Below are positions 22,601-25,528 of a DNA stretch of 64,000 nucleotides, in pieces. Where the stretch lies: assembly GCF_053078305.1 (NCBI RefSeq), contig NZ_CP166879.1. One strand, written 5' to 3'. The notes beneath the pieces are model-generated. The model had not been told where the DNA came from and did not search any database. It worked only from the letters and a program-made list of their open reading frames with translations. How positions within the stretch are numbered: position 1 is the stretch's first letter; every line of letters starts with the position of its first letter. The position numbers and the translations under genes are program-made.

Positions 22601-25528
22601 CGCGTTGTAGACGGTAATCACACCATTCTCGTGGTTGGTAGACGTCGCTTTGGTTAATGCTCCATAGTAAGCATCGGTTCCCGAAGCCATTCCCACACCG
22701 AAATCTTTCGCCGTGCTATTTGCGATGTTATTACGCAGCGATGTTTCATCATTTTCATCGACCCACAGCGTATCCAGGGTGATTTGCCCTTCGTTATCCG
22801 CGGTTGATTTATCGATAGCCAACATCCCCACGCTGCCACGACCATACATCTCAATAATGCCCGTTTCGCCGTTCAGAATGGATGACGAGTAGCTGGCAAG
22901 CATACCTGTCAAACCTAATGCTCTGTTATTGAAAGAGGTACCGTCAGACAAGTTCCACTCTGCCGGATAATTCAGCACGCTGTGCTGATTCATCATTTTG
23001 GTGGTCAAGGTGCCATTGTTAACGCCAATCCCCCCGTATTCAACATCGAAGACTTTTGGTGCCGGGTCGGTACCAAAATCGTACATCGCCAGGCCAATGG
23101 ATCCGTTATTGATGACCGTTGAATCTTTATTCCAGGCAGCCGCAAAACCGATATTTTTCAGTTCAACTTCACCGTTATTGGTCGCCTTCGCACCAGAATC
23201 AATACTAATGGTGGATAACGCTACACGATAATAATAAGTGAAAGAATCCACATCACTCATATCAAACGTTGCGTCAGCGCCAATCTCCAGCTCCGCGCCA
23301 TGGCTCAACTGAATGAGATTTTCGAACCCCAGCGGGAACTCGCCGCTGATGGTTGACTCACCATTCAGGTAGACCGAGGAATGCCCATCAACGTTAATAA
23401 GCGGTGTGTCTCCGATACCACGACGAGATGCGGCAGGTTTTGAGCCATCATCCATGACATTTTTTTCACCGACAAAATGAACACCGCCATTAAGCGTAAA
23501 GGTATTGTCATCGCCAGCAATAACAATACCCGCAATGTGTTCCTGAGCACCGTCGTAACTCGCATAGGAACGCGACGTGGTTTCACTATCAGCAACAACG
23601 GTTAACTGACCATCCAGCGTGACGTCGTTGTTGTCACCGCTGATATTTACCCCGGTTGAGGGATTAAAGAAGTAAGGCTGCGCATTATCGGCTTTCTGAT
23701 CTTTATCAACCAGAATACTGCCCGCTATTTCGATAGTATTACCATCACCCGAAACATTAACACCTGTCGCTTCTTGCCCTGTCACATTCAGCCCATAAGT
23801 CGACAGCGTCATGTTGTTATTATCGCCAGAGACATCAAGACCGGTGGAGAAATCCCCAACGTCTAACCCGCCCGCAAGTGAAATATTGGCTTTATCCCCT
23901 GCAACGCTGACACCGGTTCCGGCGTTGGTCGCGGTAATATCACCGACGTTAACAAATGTCGCATTATTACCGTCGATCTGAATGCCGATTGCATTTTCAC
24001 CTGTAGCGGCCTGGCCAACATTGAGGTCGCCCATGTTGATCACGCTGACGCCATCACCATCAAGCAGCATGCCAATAGAGTTATCTTCGATGACCGTAAT
24101 ATTACCTTTGTTGCTAACGAACGTATCATTGCCGTCAACGTCAATACCGTGCGCACCACCGCTTACGTATAAGTCGCCTTCCTGTTTGATGGTGGCACCG
24201 TCACCGACAATTTTCGAGCCAGTGGAATTCTCACCGTCAACGCTCATGGTACCTTGATTATCGACCCGCGCATTATCGCCATTGATAAGGCTACCCGTAC
24301 CACCATTGGTGATGGTCGAGTCGCCCGCAGTGTTCAGCGTAGCATTATCGCCATTGATGATTACTGCGGTACCGCCGTCAACTTCCGTCTCGCCGTTGTT
24401 ATTGATAGTGATATCGTCACCAGTAAGGATACCAACGACCGAACCCTCGCCGATGGCGGTCGTTTTACCGTCGTTGTTGAGGGTGATGTTGTCACCCTCA
24501 ACCGTCATGACAGTACCGCCATTCAGCGCCGTATTGCCGCCCTGATCGGTGATGATCGCATTACCAAAATCAATCGCAGTTCCGGTTGTGCCATCAACAA
24601 CGACACCGGCCTCTTTAGTGATATGGATGAGCCCATCATCGTCGTAGCTCCAGGTGATGCCACCTGCCGTATTTACGCCATCAAAGATGACGGTGTTGCT
24701 GTCGTCATGGACTGTCCAGCCCTTGACTATCGTCGTCAGGCCATCAGGCGCGGTTAAGGTGTAACTCCCATCGGCATTTTGGCTGTAGGTAAAGGTGGTT
24801 TCGCGAATTTTGACGGTTTTCGCGTCCTGATCCCAGGTTACGTCATTTTTATAGACGACAGGATCGTGTTTAACCGGGGTATCGCCACCATCGTCTGGCG
24901 GAACAGGCGTATCACCGCCGTCGTCTGGAACTGGCGTATCACCGCCATCATCTGGTGGAACCGGCGTATCACCGCCGTCATCTGGTGGAACCGGCGTATC
25001 ACCGCCGTCATCTGGCGGAACTGGCGTATCACCGCCGTCATCTGGCGGAACTGGCGTATCACCGCCGTCATCTGGCGGAACCGGCGTATCATCGCCGTCA
25101 TCTGGCGGAACTGGCGTATCACCGCCGTCATCTGGCGGAACTGGCGTATCACCGCCGTCATCTGGCGGAACCGGCGTATCACCGCCGTCGTCTGGCGGAA
25201 CAGGCGTATCACCGCCATCATCCGGAACTGGGGAGTTATTATGGTGGTGATTGTCATCGTCACTTAAGGTATATATAGCAATTCCCGTAGCTACTGCAGC
25301 AAGACCTGCAGCTGCCCATGGTAAAACTGCACTATCTTTATTTTCTCTGCACTCCGCGGATAAATTTTCTAGCTGCTCTTTGCTCAGGGAATGAATATTT
25401 GCCGGACATGTTATCTTACTGGACTTACGTGTTTTTTCGGTTGAGTCGGGTATTGAAGTATCCGCAGCCCATGTCTGGCTACTTAACGCCATGGCAACAC
25501 AAACAGACAATAATTTTTTCCTTTGCAT
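19673..25528 (-). CDS. ydbA: Giant autotransporter adhesin-like protein, intact frame
   Basis: 1951 aa from MQRKKLLSVCVAMALSSQTWA (SD AAGGA); long Gly/Asn/Thr-rich beta-helix-like passenger; C-terminal domain ends ...KGVMLNFKKTF. Confidence 0.9.
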   Translation of the reverse strand: MQRKKLLSVCVAMALSSQTWAADTSIPDSTEKTRKSSKITCPANIHSLSKEQLENLSAECRENKDSAVLPWAAAGLAAVATGIAIYTLSDDDNHHHNNSPVPDDGGDTPVPPDDGGDTPVPPDDGGDTPVPPDDGGDTPVPPDDGDDTPVPPDDGGDTPVPPDDGGDTPVPPDDGGDTPVPPDDGGDTPVPPDDGGDTPVPDDGGDTPVPPDDGGDTPVKHDPVVYKNDVTWDQDAKTVKIRETTFTYSQNADGSYTLTAPDGLTTIVKGWTVHDDSNTVIFDGVNTAGGITWSYDDDGLIHITKEAGVVVDGTTGTAIDFGNAIITDQGGNTALNGGTVMTVEGDNITLNNDGKTTAIGEGSVVGILTGDDITINNNGETEVDGGTAVIINGDNATLNTAGDSTITNGGTGSLINGDNARVDNQGTMSVDGENSTGSKIVGDGATIKQEGDLYVSGGAHGIDVDGNDTFVSNKGNITVIEDNSIGMLLDGDGVSVINMGDLNVGQAATGENAIGIQIDGNNATFVNVGDITATNAGTGVSVAGDKANISLAGGLDVGDFSTGLDVSGDNNNMTLSTYGLNVTGQEATGVNVSGDGNTIEIAGSILVDKDQKADNAQPYFFNPSTGVNISGDNNDVTLDGQLTVVADSETTSRSYASYDGAQEHIAGIVIAGDDNTFTLNGGVHFVGEKNVMDDGSKPAASRRGIGDTPLINVDGHSSVYLNGESTISGEFPLGFENLIQLSHGAELEIGADATFDMSDVDSFTYYYRVALSTISIDSGAKATNNGEVELKNIGFAAAWNKDSTVINNGSIGLAMYDFGTDPAPKVFDVEYGGIGVNNGTLTTKMMNQHSVLNYPAEWNLSDGTSFNNRALGLTGMLASYSSSILNGETGIIEMYGRGSVGMLAIDKSTADNEGQITLDTLWVDENDETSLRNNIANSTAKDFGVGMASGTDAYYGALTKATSTNHENGVITVYNAGAGMAAYGNTNTVINQGTINLEKNENYNDSLGVNKLVGMAVYHEGTAINDQTGVININAENGQAFYNDGTGLIINYGTICTFGVCQGADEYNPTDNYIADLYDDGDVLSSAGETVLLSSGAIINGDVTSAGAVKNGTIRILENGALVNESSGTISSAIVVNEGGALTNEGVLNTVTLEGGTFNNNGTLNDVVKIEKNSNAVINNTGSLSTLQLHDGTVNNSGIASARVNAQGDAVFNNLAGGEARKGAILYNSAVVNNAGTWKMGYQDENNNAGTLDIDDQSTFNNSGKLILDNSKNAIRFQGSNANATLYNTGEMTLDAALGAGAIHYDDGASQFINKGVVDAKVTVAVSTAGATESDAFLWNQDGGVINFDKDNASAVKFTHNNYVALNDGVMNISGNNAVAMEGDKNAQLVNNGVINLGTEGTTDTGLIGMQLDANATADAVIENNGTINIYANDSFAFSVLGTQGHIVNNGTVVIADGVTGSGLIKQGDSVNVEGVNGNNGNNTEVHYTDYTLPEVPNTSSGGVTTGGDATGSGSNNLNGYVVGTNVDGSAGKLKVNNASMNGVGINTGFAAGTADTTVSFDNVVEGSNLTDADAITSTSVVWTAKGSTDASGNVDVTMSKNAYTDVATDASVNDVAKALDAGYTNNELYTSLNVGTTAELNSALKQVSGSQATTVFREARVLSNRFSMLADAAPKMGNGLAFNVVAKGDPRAELGNNTEYDMLALRKTVDLSESQSLSLEYGIARLDGDGAQKAGDNGVTGGYSQFFGLKHQMFFDNGMNWNNALRYDVHNLDSSRSVAYGDVSKTADTDVKQQYLEFRSEGAKTFEPREGLKITPYAGVKLRHTLEGGYQERNAGDFNLSMNSGSETAVDSIVGLKLDYAGKGGWSANATLEGGPNLSYSKSQRTASLAGAGSQHFNVDDGQKGGGINSLASVGVKYSSKESSLNLDAYHWKEDGISDKGVMLNFKKTF
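24877..25227 (-). repeat. About 12 to 13 tandem copies of a 27-bp unit inside ydbA, encoding (P)PDDGGDTPV repeats
   Basis: Near-identical units GGCGGAACYGGCGTATCACCGCCGTCATCT visible on the plus strand; one unit is shorter. Confidence 0.9.

What the first reader, a model, noticed from the sequence alone, without database searches (positions are those of the whole stretch)
24877..25227. 27-bp tandem repeat array inside ydbA encoding (P)PDDGGDTPV x about 12: a likely length-variable stalk
About 12 to 13 near-identical 27-bp units occur head to tail and in frame, producing an acidic Pro-rich spacer just after the N-terminal region. High nucleotide identity between units suggests recent expansion or concerted evolution and makes slipped-strand or recombinational copy-number change likely. 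One unit is shorter, preserving the frame. This also generates long artefactual ORFs on both strands (24779-25267 plus, 24838-25263 minus).
Basis: seen in the sequence. Interest (0 to 1): 0.5.

Follow-up and report, generated by a model that had tools for sequence, protein, structure and literature searches.

The report
Variable-length repeat linker in ydbA autotransporter
A run of twelve near-identical 30-base repeats inside an E. coli surface-protein gene (ydbA) encodes a floppy, acidic, proline-rich linker whose copy number differs from 2 to 15 between strains; this is a real but ordinary example of a length-variable repeat in a bacterial surface protein.

Summary
The repeat is real. It lies at window 24872-25225 on the minus strand, inside an intact 1951-aa ydbA allele that encodes a classical type Va autotransporter.

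The unit is 30 bp (PPDDGGDTPV), not 27 bp. There are 12 units: ten of 30 bp and two of 27 bp, all in frame.

Copy number varies among complete E. coli genomes. I counted 2, 4, 5, 7, 8, 9, 11, 12, 13 and 15 units. Every length difference is a multiple of 3. The first and last units stay fixed, and whole units or blocks are gained or lost inside the array. As a control, the K-12-type ydbA allele has a degenerate, non-tandem linker at the same place and keeps one fixed length per allele class.

Distant homologues carry independent expansions of other Pro/Asp/Gly units (7, 9, 10 and 11 aa) at the same position. That position lies between a conserved N-terminal module and the BigA_N domain. AlphaFold2 predicts no structure for the repeat.

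So "length-variable" is supported. "Stalk" is not: in a type Va autotransporter the N-terminus is the end away from the membrane anchor, so this is an N-terminal tether.

It is a new member of a known kind, with modest interest. The most interesting loose end is the conserved Gly/Ala-rich hydrophobic helix that the linker tethers.

The parts
24872..25225 (-). In-frame tandem array: 12 units (ten of 30 bp, two of 27 bp) encoding (P)PDDGGDTPV. It is 118 aa with composition D37 P34 G23 T12 V12, net charge about -37, and 63.6% GC.
19673..25528 (-). ydbA allele: 1951 aa plus stop, counted from the probable start MQRKK. The longest ORF runs 13 codons further upstream, to 25567. It encodes an intact classical autotransporter.
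25466..25528 (-). Sec-type signal peptide MQRKKLLSVCVAMALSSQTWA, with a conserved small-x-A cleavage motif. Identified by inspection and by conservation in 22 homologues; no predictor was run.
25349..25408 (-). Conserved two-cysteine segment CPxxI..L(S/T)xEQxxxLxxxC. C41, P42 and C60 are invariant in the family alignment. AF2 gives short helices here with pLDDT about 70.
25265..25330 (-). Conserved Gly/Ala-rich hydrophobic segment AVLPWAAAGLAAVATGIAIYTL (invariant G75). Mean Kyte-Doolittle hydropathy over 19 residues is 1.86. AF2 confidence is low.
25232..25264 (-). Acidic/His cluster SDDDNHHHNNS immediately before the array. Similar Asp/His/Gly-rich stretches occur in homologues.
24617..24859 (-). 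BigA_N (PF25784) beta-barrel domain, starting 4 residues after the last repeat unit. AF2 pLDDT is above 90.
20720..20971 (-). BigA_beta (PF25783) beta-sandwich domain.
19763..20362 (-). Autotransporter beta-domain (PF03797), the outer-membrane barrel.
24779..25267 (+). Artefactual ORF (162 aa) made by the stop-free repeat read on the opposite strand.
24838..25263 (-). Artefactual ORF (141 aa) in frame +1 relative to ydbA.
24955..25278 (+). Third artefactual ORF (107 aa) through the repeat.

Best explanation
The array is an in-frame variable-number tandem repeat (VNTR) in the 5' part of ydbA.

At the DNA level, the near-identical 30-bp units misalign during replication or recombine unequally between sister copies. 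Whole units, or blocks of units, are then added or lost. Because units are 30 or 27 bp, the reading frame is always kept. This changes protein length; it is not an on/off switch.

At the protein level, the array encodes a strongly acidic, lysine/arginine-free, Pro/Asp/Gly-rich segment that is probably disordered or extended. It acts as a flexible tether. On one side is a conserved N-terminal module: a two-cysteine helix segment, a Gly/Ala-rich hydrophobic helix and an Asp/His cluster. On the other side is the BigA_N domain and the beta-helix passenger.

Length is only loosely constrained, because the family tolerates linkers of about 24 to 169 residues. The peptide character is kept.

Shown: the repeat, its frame, the copy-number polymorphism, the unit-level pattern of change, the domain context, and the family-wide recurrence. 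Inferred: the slippage/recombination mechanism, the disordered-tether role, and weak selection on length.
For: - Repeat and frame.
- Copy number of 2-15 units with every change in frame.
- Unit typing. The window reads ABCCDCCEFGHI. ETEC6335 reads ABCCDCEFGMI, TB06051 reads ABECCDCCEFGHI, and UCPROB-002 reads ABCKCUEECUEEGHI (a block duplication).
- The O157 series in the same typing reads AJAJKCI / AJAJAJKCI / AJKCI / AJAJI / AJLI / AI. One unit there is a hybrid, and the end units A and I are always kept.
- Control: the K-12-type allele has a degenerate, non-tandem linker. In a 60-genome spread sample of 2426 genomes, its span is fixed within each identity class at 801, 803 or 811 bp.
- Among 21 unit variants, 8 of 11 variable nucleotide positions are third codon positions, so the peptide is conserved.
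- Homologues at 30-60% identity carry other repeats at the same position: the 9-aa unit DGG[DN]VTPP x16, the 7-aa unit PDDGGNT x14, PPDDGGDTPI x7, and PVD/DPxP types. Linker length ranges from 24 to 169 aa, with 10-35% D+E and mostly 0-4% K+R.
- AF2 gives the repeat no secondary structure, with pLDDT 45-57 over most of it and 70 in the last ten-residue block. The flanking BigA_N and beta-helix score above 90.
- Domain context.
- E. coli precedent for mechanism and rate: the tolA 15-bp repeats vary from 8 to 16 copies among isolates. They contract at 6.9e-5 in a RecA-dependent way (PMC3477136).
Against: - No experiment or read-level data here shows change within a clonal population.
- Related isolates usually share the same count, for example the five UK O157 genomes with 9 units and the 86-24 derivatives. 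The rate may therefore be modest.
- Intact alleles cluster tightly at 11-15 units (mostly 12) even at 96-99% flank identity. That could mean real selection on length rather than loose constraint.
- The low AF2 confidence is weak evidence for disorder, given only 22 sequences in the alignment.
- The role of the N-terminal module is unknown, so 'tether' describes geometry, not a tested function.
Confidence: 0.72

Rival explanations
1. Adaptive, tuned spacer ('stalk' in the functional sense). On this view copy number is selected to set how far the N-terminal module, or the passenger tip, reaches relative to LPS O-antigen or capsule. Alternatively it sets the slack between an N-terminal anchor and the passenger. 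Different lineages would then carry different optima.
For: - All seven intact alleles I examined carry 11-15 units.
- 14 of 17 non-O157 best hits have exactly 12-unit spans despite 1-4% flank divergence.
- The clade with a premature stop has drifted down to 2-9 units.
- Synonymous-only differences between units indicate selection on the peptide.
- Repeat copy number does change function in E. coli TolA. The Cha autotransporter is a further cited precedent.
Against: - Across the family the linker ranges from 24 to 169 residues with no common length.
- K-12/UpaH-type alleles, present in 2426 genomes, manage with about 57 residues.
- The repeat is at the membrane-distal N-terminus of a type Va passenger, so it cannot lift the passenger off the cell.
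- No phenotype data exist for this linker.
Confidence: 0.15
2. Immune-evasion or decoy repeat. The exposed, repetitive acidic epitope would be immunodominant, and copy-number change would alter antibody recognition. Proposed parallels are the pertactin Pro-rich repeat regions and the streptococcal alpha C protein.
For: - The location is predicted to be surface-exposed, in the passenger of an autotransporter.
- The sequence is repetitive and likely accessible and disordered.
- Lineages differ in copy number.
- Precedents are cited in PMC3477136; the rest rests on my own knowledge.
Against: - The unit peptide is almost invariant, so changing the count does not create new epitopes.
- The greatest variation is in a lineage where the gene is truncated and probably not displayed.
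- No serological data were found.
Confidence: 0.06
3. Metal- or calcium-binding acidic repeat. The DDGGD units, together with the upstream DDDNHHH cluster, would bind divalent cations and fold or stiffen once outside the cell, in the manner of RTX-type repeats.
For: - There are 37 Asp in 118 residues, and a conserved Asp/His cluster lies directly upstream.
Against: - The unit does not fit the RTX nonapeptide GGxGxDxUx. Every unit contains 3-4 prolines, which is incompatible with the RTX beta-roll (sequence inspection).
- Pfam finds no calcium-binding family here.
- Some homologues replace the unit with PVD or DPxP repeats that lack the DDGGD core.
Confidence: 0.04
4. Assembly artefact. On this view the apparent copy-number differences come from collapsed or expanded repeats in the assemblies, not from biology.
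For: - Short-read-derived proteins in the big protein collection are often truncated or chimeric near this region (P0001, P0002, P0004, P0007).
Against: - The collection used holds RefSeq 'complete genome' assemblies.
- Identical arrays recur in independent related genomes: 29 of 60 sampled genomes have the 7-unit span, and five UK O157 have 9 units. D8 and THO-010 are identical, and the window matches ES5, 1504D004 and 1604D011.
- The variants differ by clean unit or block events with conserved end units.
Confidence: 0.03

Closest known systems
YdbA of E. coli K-12 (pseudogene b4492). From my own memory this is the orthologue of the UPEC adhesin/biofilm autotransporter UpaH (Allsopp et al. 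2010, 2012; these papers are not held in the library).
   Same: - Same chromosomal locus next to pdxI/ydbC-ydbD.
- Same N-terminal plan: signal peptide, two-Cys segment, hydrophobic helix, Asp/His cluster, Pro/Asp linker, BigA_N.
- 61% identity over 1722 aa, with a nearly identical C-terminal region.
   Different: - The K-12 linker (LPPTPPDDESDDTPVPPTPGGDEIIPDDPDDTPTPPKP) is short and degenerate, is not a DNA tandem repeat, and has a fixed length within each allele class.
- The K-12/UpaH passenger instead carries long repeats of about 70 aa, and the protein is much larger.
- The window allele is found in only 373 of 5426 complete genomes, against 2426 for the K-12 type.
Salmonella BigA (NCBIfam NF033178 'autotransporter adhesin BigA'; Pfam BigA_N and BigA_beta)
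   Same: - It shares the BigA_N and BigA_beta domains and the barrel.
   Different: - It scores 1099 bits against a curated cut-off of 3400, so it is not an equivalog.
- BigA is known mainly as an annotated putative adhesin.
Intragenic tandem repeat of E. coli tolA (PMC3477136)
   Same: - An in-frame repeat in an envelope-protein linker.
- 8-16 copies among isolates.
- Copy number changes in clonal populations at 6.9e-5, RecA-dependent and UvrD-suppressed.
- Length affects function.
   Different: - The units are 15 bp and encode an alpha-helical periplasmic domain II. They do not encode a Pro-rich N-terminal passenger segment that is probably surface-exposed.
- The dynamics have been shown experimentally for tolA but not for ydbA.
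Pro-rich polymorphic repeat regions of Bordetella pertactin (GGxxP and PQP repeats), from my own knowledge
   Same: - A type Va autotransporter passenger.
- Short Pro/Gly-rich in-frame repeats whose number differs between strains.
   Different: - The pertactin repeats are loops on or after the beta-helix, not an N-terminal tether.
- They are linked to vaccine-driven antigenic change, and no such link is known here.
Cha trimeric autotransporter of the Haemophilus cryptic genospecies (Sheets & St Geme 2011, cited in PMC3477136)
   Same: - Tandem peptide repeat number in an autotransporter varies and modulates adhesive activity.
   Different: - It is a trimeric (type Vc) protein.
- The repeats are longer and lie in the stalk between the head and the anchor.

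Membership tests
Classical (type Va) autotransporter | C-terminal 12-stranded outer-membrane beta-barrel domain (Pfam PF03797) | tested here: met
   PF03797 matches residues 736-935 of the C-terminal half (E 5e-18), which is window 19763-20362. The protein ends in ...NFKKTF.
Classical (type Va) autotransporter | N-terminal Sec signal peptide | tested here: inconclusive
   MQRKK, a hydrophobic core and TWA|A fit a Sec signal, and the same pattern is conserved in 22 homologues. No signal-peptide predictor was available, so this rests on inspection only.
Classical (type Va) autotransporter | Beta-helical passenger between the signal peptide and the barrel | tested here: met
   AF2 models regular short beta-strands with pLDDT above 90 from residue 224 to the end of the 415-residue N-terminal query, that is from just after the repeat. 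RefSeq names for orthologues include 'pectate lyase-fold' and 'beta strand repeat-containing'.
BigA equivalog (NCBIfam NF033178) | Whole-protein score at or above the curated cut-off (3400 bits) | tested here: not met
   The score is 1099 bits. It is a relative of BigA, not BigA itself.
ydbA locus of E. coli | Position next to pdxI (ydbC)-ydbD, and homology to K-12 b4492 | tested here: met
   Synteny is shown. Identity is 61% over 1722 aa to a K-12-type YdbA. Unlike K-12, there is no paa/fea/tynA block between ydbL and ydbA.
In-frame intragenic VNTR | Head-to-tail near-identical units whose length is a multiple of 3 | tested here: met
   The period is 30 with 91% matches. Units are 30 or 27 bp.
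In-frame intragenic VNTR | Copy number differs among strains while the flanks are conserved | tested here: met
   Copy number is 2-15 units, and the N-terminal 100 residues are almost invariant.
In-frame intragenic VNTR | Copy number changes within clonal populations at a measurable rate | not testable with these tools
   This needs long-read heterogeneity data, PCR sizing or a fluctuation assay. Variation within the O157:H7/O55:H7 clade (2-9 units) is indirect support.
Phase-variable contingency locus (frame-shifting simple repeat) | A unit length that is not a multiple of 3, so that copy change switches the gene on or off | tested here: not met
   All units are 27 or 30 bp, and all observed length differences are multiples of 3.
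RTX calcium-binding repeats | Nonapeptide GGxGxDxUx | tested here: not met
   The unit PPDDGGDTPV does not fit the motif, and Pfam reports no such family.
Membrane-proximal stalk or spacer of a surface protein | The repeat lies between the membrane or wall anchor and the functional domain | tested here: not met
   The anchor (barrel) is C-terminal, while the repeat is at residues 102-219 of 1951. The feature would be met only if the upstream hydrophobic helix were an anchor, which is untested.

The most novel reading that the evidence does not exclude
The repeat could be the adjustable leash of a so-far undescribed N-terminal membrane-active or anchoring module shared by the BigA/YdbA autotransporters.

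This module comprises a conserved two-cysteine helix segment, a Gly/Ala-rich hydrophobic helix (invariant Gly, Kyte-Doolittle 1.5-2.1) and an Asp/His cluster. It would insert into a membrane, either the bacterium's own outer membrane or a target cell's. The hydrophobic, glycine-rich N-terminus of the autotransporter toxin VacA is a loose parallel.

The independently expanded acidic Pro-rich repeats would then set the module's reach. Equally, they would set the slack of a passenger pinned at both ends.
Probability: 0.1. Interest if true: 0.65.

Novelty: new member of a known kind. Interest (0 to 1): 0.3.

Why it matters
In practical terms, this is a clean 30-bp VNTR with at least ten length classes in complete genomes, including six within the O157:H7/O55:H7 clade. 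It could serve as a typing marker. It is also a predictable trouble spot for short-read assembly and annotation: RefSeq names for the gene vary widely, some intact copies are flagged as partial, and long spurious ORFs arise on both strands.

Biologically, it adds ydbA to the list of E. coli envelope proteins with length-variable linkers. It also shows that the same linker position has expanded independently, with different units, across a small family of enterobacterial autotransporters. This points to the poorly understood N-terminal module of that family as worth experimental attention.

It does not change current understanding of how such repeats arise or work.

Tried and rejected
- **Typing-scheme literature.** Searches for this locus in MLVA/VNTR work (ydbA + tandem repeat; VNTR/O157/30-bp/autotransporter; Vhec loci; MLVA/O157/30 bp) found nothing relevant. 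I cannot say whether any typing scheme already uses it.
- **UpaH papers.** The two primary papers are not held. The UpaH = YdbA equivalence therefore rests on my memory, plus the 92% match of the CFT073 locus to the K-12 ydbA 5' end.
- **Word-indexed protein search.** It was swamped by low-complexity words and returned only 12 hits, mostly fragments. The exhaustive representative search was used instead.
- **The repeat finder on the minus strand.** TRF and a script replaced it.
- **AF2 on the N-terminus.** It gave no confident model of the N-terminal hydrophobic segment (pLDDT 30-43). The membrane-helix idea could therefore be neither supported nor rejected, and I ran no fold search because the informative part was low-confidence.
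- **Rejected readings.** I rejected an on/off phase-variation switch because the units are multiples of 3. I rejected RTX-type calcium repeats because the motif is absent. I rejected other genomic copies of the repeat. The 'places per genome' in the BLAST summary track the unit number (1 place for 2 units, 6 for 7 units, 12 for 12 units), so they are offset self-alignments within the one array.
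Full report
**1. The observation**

The sequence at 24872-25225 is a head-to-tail array. Tandem Repeats Finder gives period 30, 11.8 copies, 91% matches and score 548. It is the only tandem repeat in the whole 64-kb window. The consensus unit matches nine times with 3 or fewer mismatches, against none in 100 shuffles.

The array is on the minus strand, inside the ORF 19673-25567. Translating and cutting it unit by unit gives 12 units of P?PDDG[GD]DTPV:
- Ten units are 30 bp.
- Two units are 27 bp: unit 1 at 25199-25225 and unit 11 at 24902-24928.
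- One unit has a Gly-to-Asp change.

The '27-bp' period is wrong (it is 30), and two units are short rather than one.

All translate to repeat-derived peptides. The minus-strand one is offset by one base from the gene's frame.

**2. The gene**

Synteny in a genome whose 1.1-kb region is identical to the window is ydbD-pdxI(ydbC)-[this gene]-ydbL-ynbE-ydbH-ldhA. In K-12, ydbA sits next to pdxI-ydbD and is broken by IS2 and IS30.

The window protein is 61% identical over 1722 aa to a K-12-type YdbA, and nearly identical at the C-terminus. It is therefore a divergent, intact allele of ydbA. It is 1951 aa counted from the MQRKK start that RefSeq uses; the longest ORF adds 13 codons upstream.

Domain hits are as follows:
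- Pfam finds BigA_N (PF25784) four residues after the last repeat unit.
- Pfam finds BigA_beta (PF25783) and the autotransporter barrel (PF03797) in the C-terminal half.
- NCBIfam's BigA model scores 1099 bits against a cut-off of 3400, so this is a relative of BigA and not an equivalog.

The protein is thus a classical type Va autotransporter.

**3. Is copy number variable?**

A megablast of window 24500-25600 against 5426 complete E. coli genomes found this allele in 373 of them.

The span of the matched region takes the values 1101, 1074, 1071, 1008, 981, 951, 894, 891, 861 and 804 bp. Every difference from 1101 is a multiple of 3.

An evenly spaced sample of 60 of the 373 genomes split as follows:

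| Span (bp) | Genomes |
|---|---|
| 951 | 29 |
| 804 | 6 |
| 1008 | 5 |
| 861 | 4 |
| 894 | 2 |
| 1101 | 2 |
| 1074 | 1 |
| 1071 | 1 |
| 981 | 1 |
| 891 | 1 |
| BLAST alignment incomplete | 8 |

I fetched 14 loci and counted units directly:

| Strain(s) | Units |
|---|---|
| 2017C-4109 | 2 |
| strain 131 | 4 |
| O157 2149; O55:H7 USDA5905 | 5 |
| O157 LSU61 (the common O157/O55:H7 state) | 7 |
| STEC799 | 8 |
| O157 9000 | 9 |
| ETEC6335; Res13 | 11 |
| window; ES5 | 12 |
| TB06051; D8; THO-010 | 13 |
| UCPROB-002 | 15 |

The 100 residues before the array are almost invariant across all of these.

**4. How it changes**

I gave each distinct DNA unit a letter. This gives the following arrays:

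| Strain | Array |
|---|---|
| window | ABCCDCCEFGHI |
| ETEC6335 | ABCCDCEFGMI |
| TB06051 | ABECCDCCEFGHI |
| UCPROB-002 | ABCKCUEECUEEGHI (a CUEE block duplication) |
| O157 LSU61 | AJAJKCI |
| O157 9000 | AJAJAJKCI (one extra 57-bp AJ block) |
| O157 2149 | AJKCI |
| O55:H7 USDA5905 | AJAJI |
| strain 131 | AJLI (L is a hybrid unit) |
| 2017C-4109 | AI |

In 14 of the 15 arrays typed the end units A and I are fixed, and changes are internal gains or losses of one to several units. The exception is the more diverged Res13 array (LKCCNOPQRRS). This is the classic signature of replication slippage or unequal recombination in a tandem array. That mechanism is an inference, not something shown here.

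An E. coli precedent exists. The tolA 15-bp in-frame repeats vary from 8 to 16 copies among isolates. They contract at 6.9e-5 per cell in a RecA-dependent, UvrD-suppressed way (PMC3477136).

There is also an internal control. The K-12-type ydbA allele has a short, degenerate linker at the same position that is not a DNA tandem repeat (LPPTPPDDESDDTPVPPTPGGDEIIPDDPDDTPTPPKP). In a 60-genome spread sample of the 2426 genomes that carry it, the span is fixed at 801, 803 or 811 bp according to identity class. There is no variation within a class. Length instability therefore goes with near-perfect DNA repetition, as expected.

**5. Constraint**

Among the 21 unit variants seen, 8 of the 11 variable nucleotide positions are third codon positions. 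The peptide is conserved while the DNA drifts.

All seven intact alleles I examined have 11-15 units. Of the 17 best non-O157 hits, 14 have the 12-unit span even at 96-99% identity.

The 2-9 unit range belongs to the O157:H7/O55:H7 clade. In the one O157:H7 allele I read in full (LSU61), the gene has an in-frame stop at codon 1012 (CQGADEY becomes C*GADEY). RefSeq splits the clade's gene into two CDSs, so I infer the same stop in the other clade genomes. Variation there is probably under relaxed selection.

This pattern is compatible with some selection for a long linker in functional alleles, but the sample is small.

**6. What the peptide is**

The 118 residues consist of D37, P34, G23, T12 and V12, with a net charge of about -37 and no basic residues.

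AlphaFold2, run on the N-terminal 415 residues with a 22-sequence family alignment, gave the following:
- The repeat gets no secondary structure, with pLDDT 45-57 over most of it and 70 in the last ten-residue block.
- BigA_N and the first beta-helix rungs are above 90.
- The two-cysteine segment scores about 70.
- The hydrophobic segment scores only 30-43.

The repeat is best read as a disordered or extended acidic linker.

**7. Family context**

An exhaustive search of 1.84 billion representative proteins found only 63 relatives of the N-terminal region. The full-length ones share one plan:
- a signal peptide with a conserved small-x-A cleavage motif;
- a CP...L(S/T)xEQxxKLPxxC segment, with C41, P42 and C60 invariant;
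- a Gly/Ala-rich hydrophobic segment, with G75 invariant;
- an Asp/His/Gly-rich stretch;
- a low-complexity acidic linker;
- BigA_N.

The linker differs in unit and number between homologues. Examples are DGG[DN]VTPP x16 (P0013), PDDGGNT x14 (P0024) and PPDDGGDTPI x7 (P0051). There are also 10-11-aa PPDDxxD units x3-6, and PVD or DPxP types.

By my script, linker length runs from 24 to 169 residues. D+E is 10-35% and K+R is mostly 0-4%. The position is therefore a recurrent site of independent repeat expansion, and no particular length is conserved.

**8. Topology and the word 'stalk'**

In a type Va autotransporter the passenger is held by its C-terminus, so residues 102-219 are at the distal end. 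The repeat therefore links the roughly 80-residue mature N-terminal module to the passenger. It does not raise the passenger above the membrane.

The hydrophobic segment has a mean Kyte-Doolittle value of 1.86 over 19 residues (family range 1.2-2.1). A crude sum on the biological hydrophobicity scale is positive, +0.4 to +4 kcal/mol. It is thus a borderline membrane-helix candidate.

A stable inner-membrane stop-transfer helix after a cleaved signal peptide would leave the passenger and barrel in the cytoplasm. That is incompatible with an autotransporter. I therefore infer that the segment is exported. What it does afterwards is unknown.

**9. Comparison with known systems, and verdict**

The closest relatives are K-12 YdbA (UpaH of UPEC, from my memory) and Salmonella BigA.

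The closest functional analogues are:
- the tolA intragenic repeat;
- the Pro-rich polymorphic repeats of pertactin;
- the repeat-number-dependent Cha autotransporter.

It is not a frame-shifting phase-variation locus, and it is not an RTX repeat.

The finding is real. The unit size and the 'stalk' geometry need correcting. This is a new example of a well-known kind of feature, and the interest is modest.

The most interesting open point is the conserved N-terminal hydrophobic module that the variable linker tethers.

Noticed in passing
window 25265-25330 (-), and homologues P0013-P0070: A conserved Gly/Ala-rich hydrophobic segment (AVLPWAAAGLAAVATGIAIYTL, invariant Gly75) follows the signal peptide and a two-cysteine segment (C41, P42, C60 invariant) in all BigA/YdbA-type autotransporters examined. 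Its hydropathy is borderline for a membrane helix and AF2 confidence is low. Its role in an autotransporter is unexplained.
   Followed up: partly
window 25232-25264 (-): An Asp/His cluster, SDDDNHHHNNS, lies directly before the repeat. Comparable His/Asp/Gly-rich stretches occur at the same place in homologues, so it could be a metal-binding site.
   Followed up: no
window 25529-25567 (-): The longest ORF starts 13 codons upstream (MACYARSRSKEFY) of the MQRKK start. RefSeq uses the MQRKK start, and all homologues begin there. The upstream extension is probably not translated.
   Followed up: partly
L002 (O157:H7 LSU61) 3165-8879: In the O157:H7 allele read in full (LSU61), ydbA has an in-frame stop at codon 1012 (Gln to stop). 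It is annotated as two CDSs ('proline-rich domain-containing protein' and 'autotransporter outer membrane beta-barrel domain-containing protein'). The gene is probably a pseudogene there. The same split-CDS naming across the O157:H7/O55:H7 clade suggests the stop is shared, and the repeat still varies from 2 to 9 units in that clade.
   Followed up: yes
window about 25900-29100 versus L015 (K-12): In this strain ydbA lies directly downstream of ydbH-ynbE-ydbL on the same strand. K-12 has the feaRB-tynA-paa cluster between ydbL and ydbA. From my own knowledge, YdbH is a TamB/AsmA-like envelope protein. The adjacency to an autotransporter may be coincidental.
   Followed up: no
proteins P0010, P0018, P0007: Some database proteins join the YdbA N-terminus, in P0010 within the second repeat unit, to unrelated sequence. 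The partner is a phage lambda J-like tail protein in P0010 and P0018, and a methyltransferase in P0007. These suggest prophage junctions or rearrangements inside ydbA in some genomes, or assembly chimeras.
   Followed up: no
E. coli genome hits H149-H171; L001: RefSeq naming of this gene is erratic. Names seen include 'proline-rich', 'beta strand repeat-containing', 'pectate lyase-fold' and 'BigA'. Several genomes even carry 'EntS/YbdA MFS transporter', apparently a YbdA/YdbA name mix-up. In strain ES5 an ORF with no internal stop is annotated as two partial pseudogene pieces.
   Followed up: partly
proteins P0013, P0024, P0051 and others: Independent tandem expansions of different units occur at the same linker position in distant family members: a 9-aa unit x16, a 7-aa unit x14, and a 10-aa unit x7.
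   Followed up: yes
E. coli genomes H60 (NZ_AP027877.1) and H179-H180: A few genomes keep only the 5' end or the upstream region of ydbA, with 11-17% or 65% of the query covered at 100% identity. This indicates deletions or insertions inside the gene in those strains.
   Followed up: no
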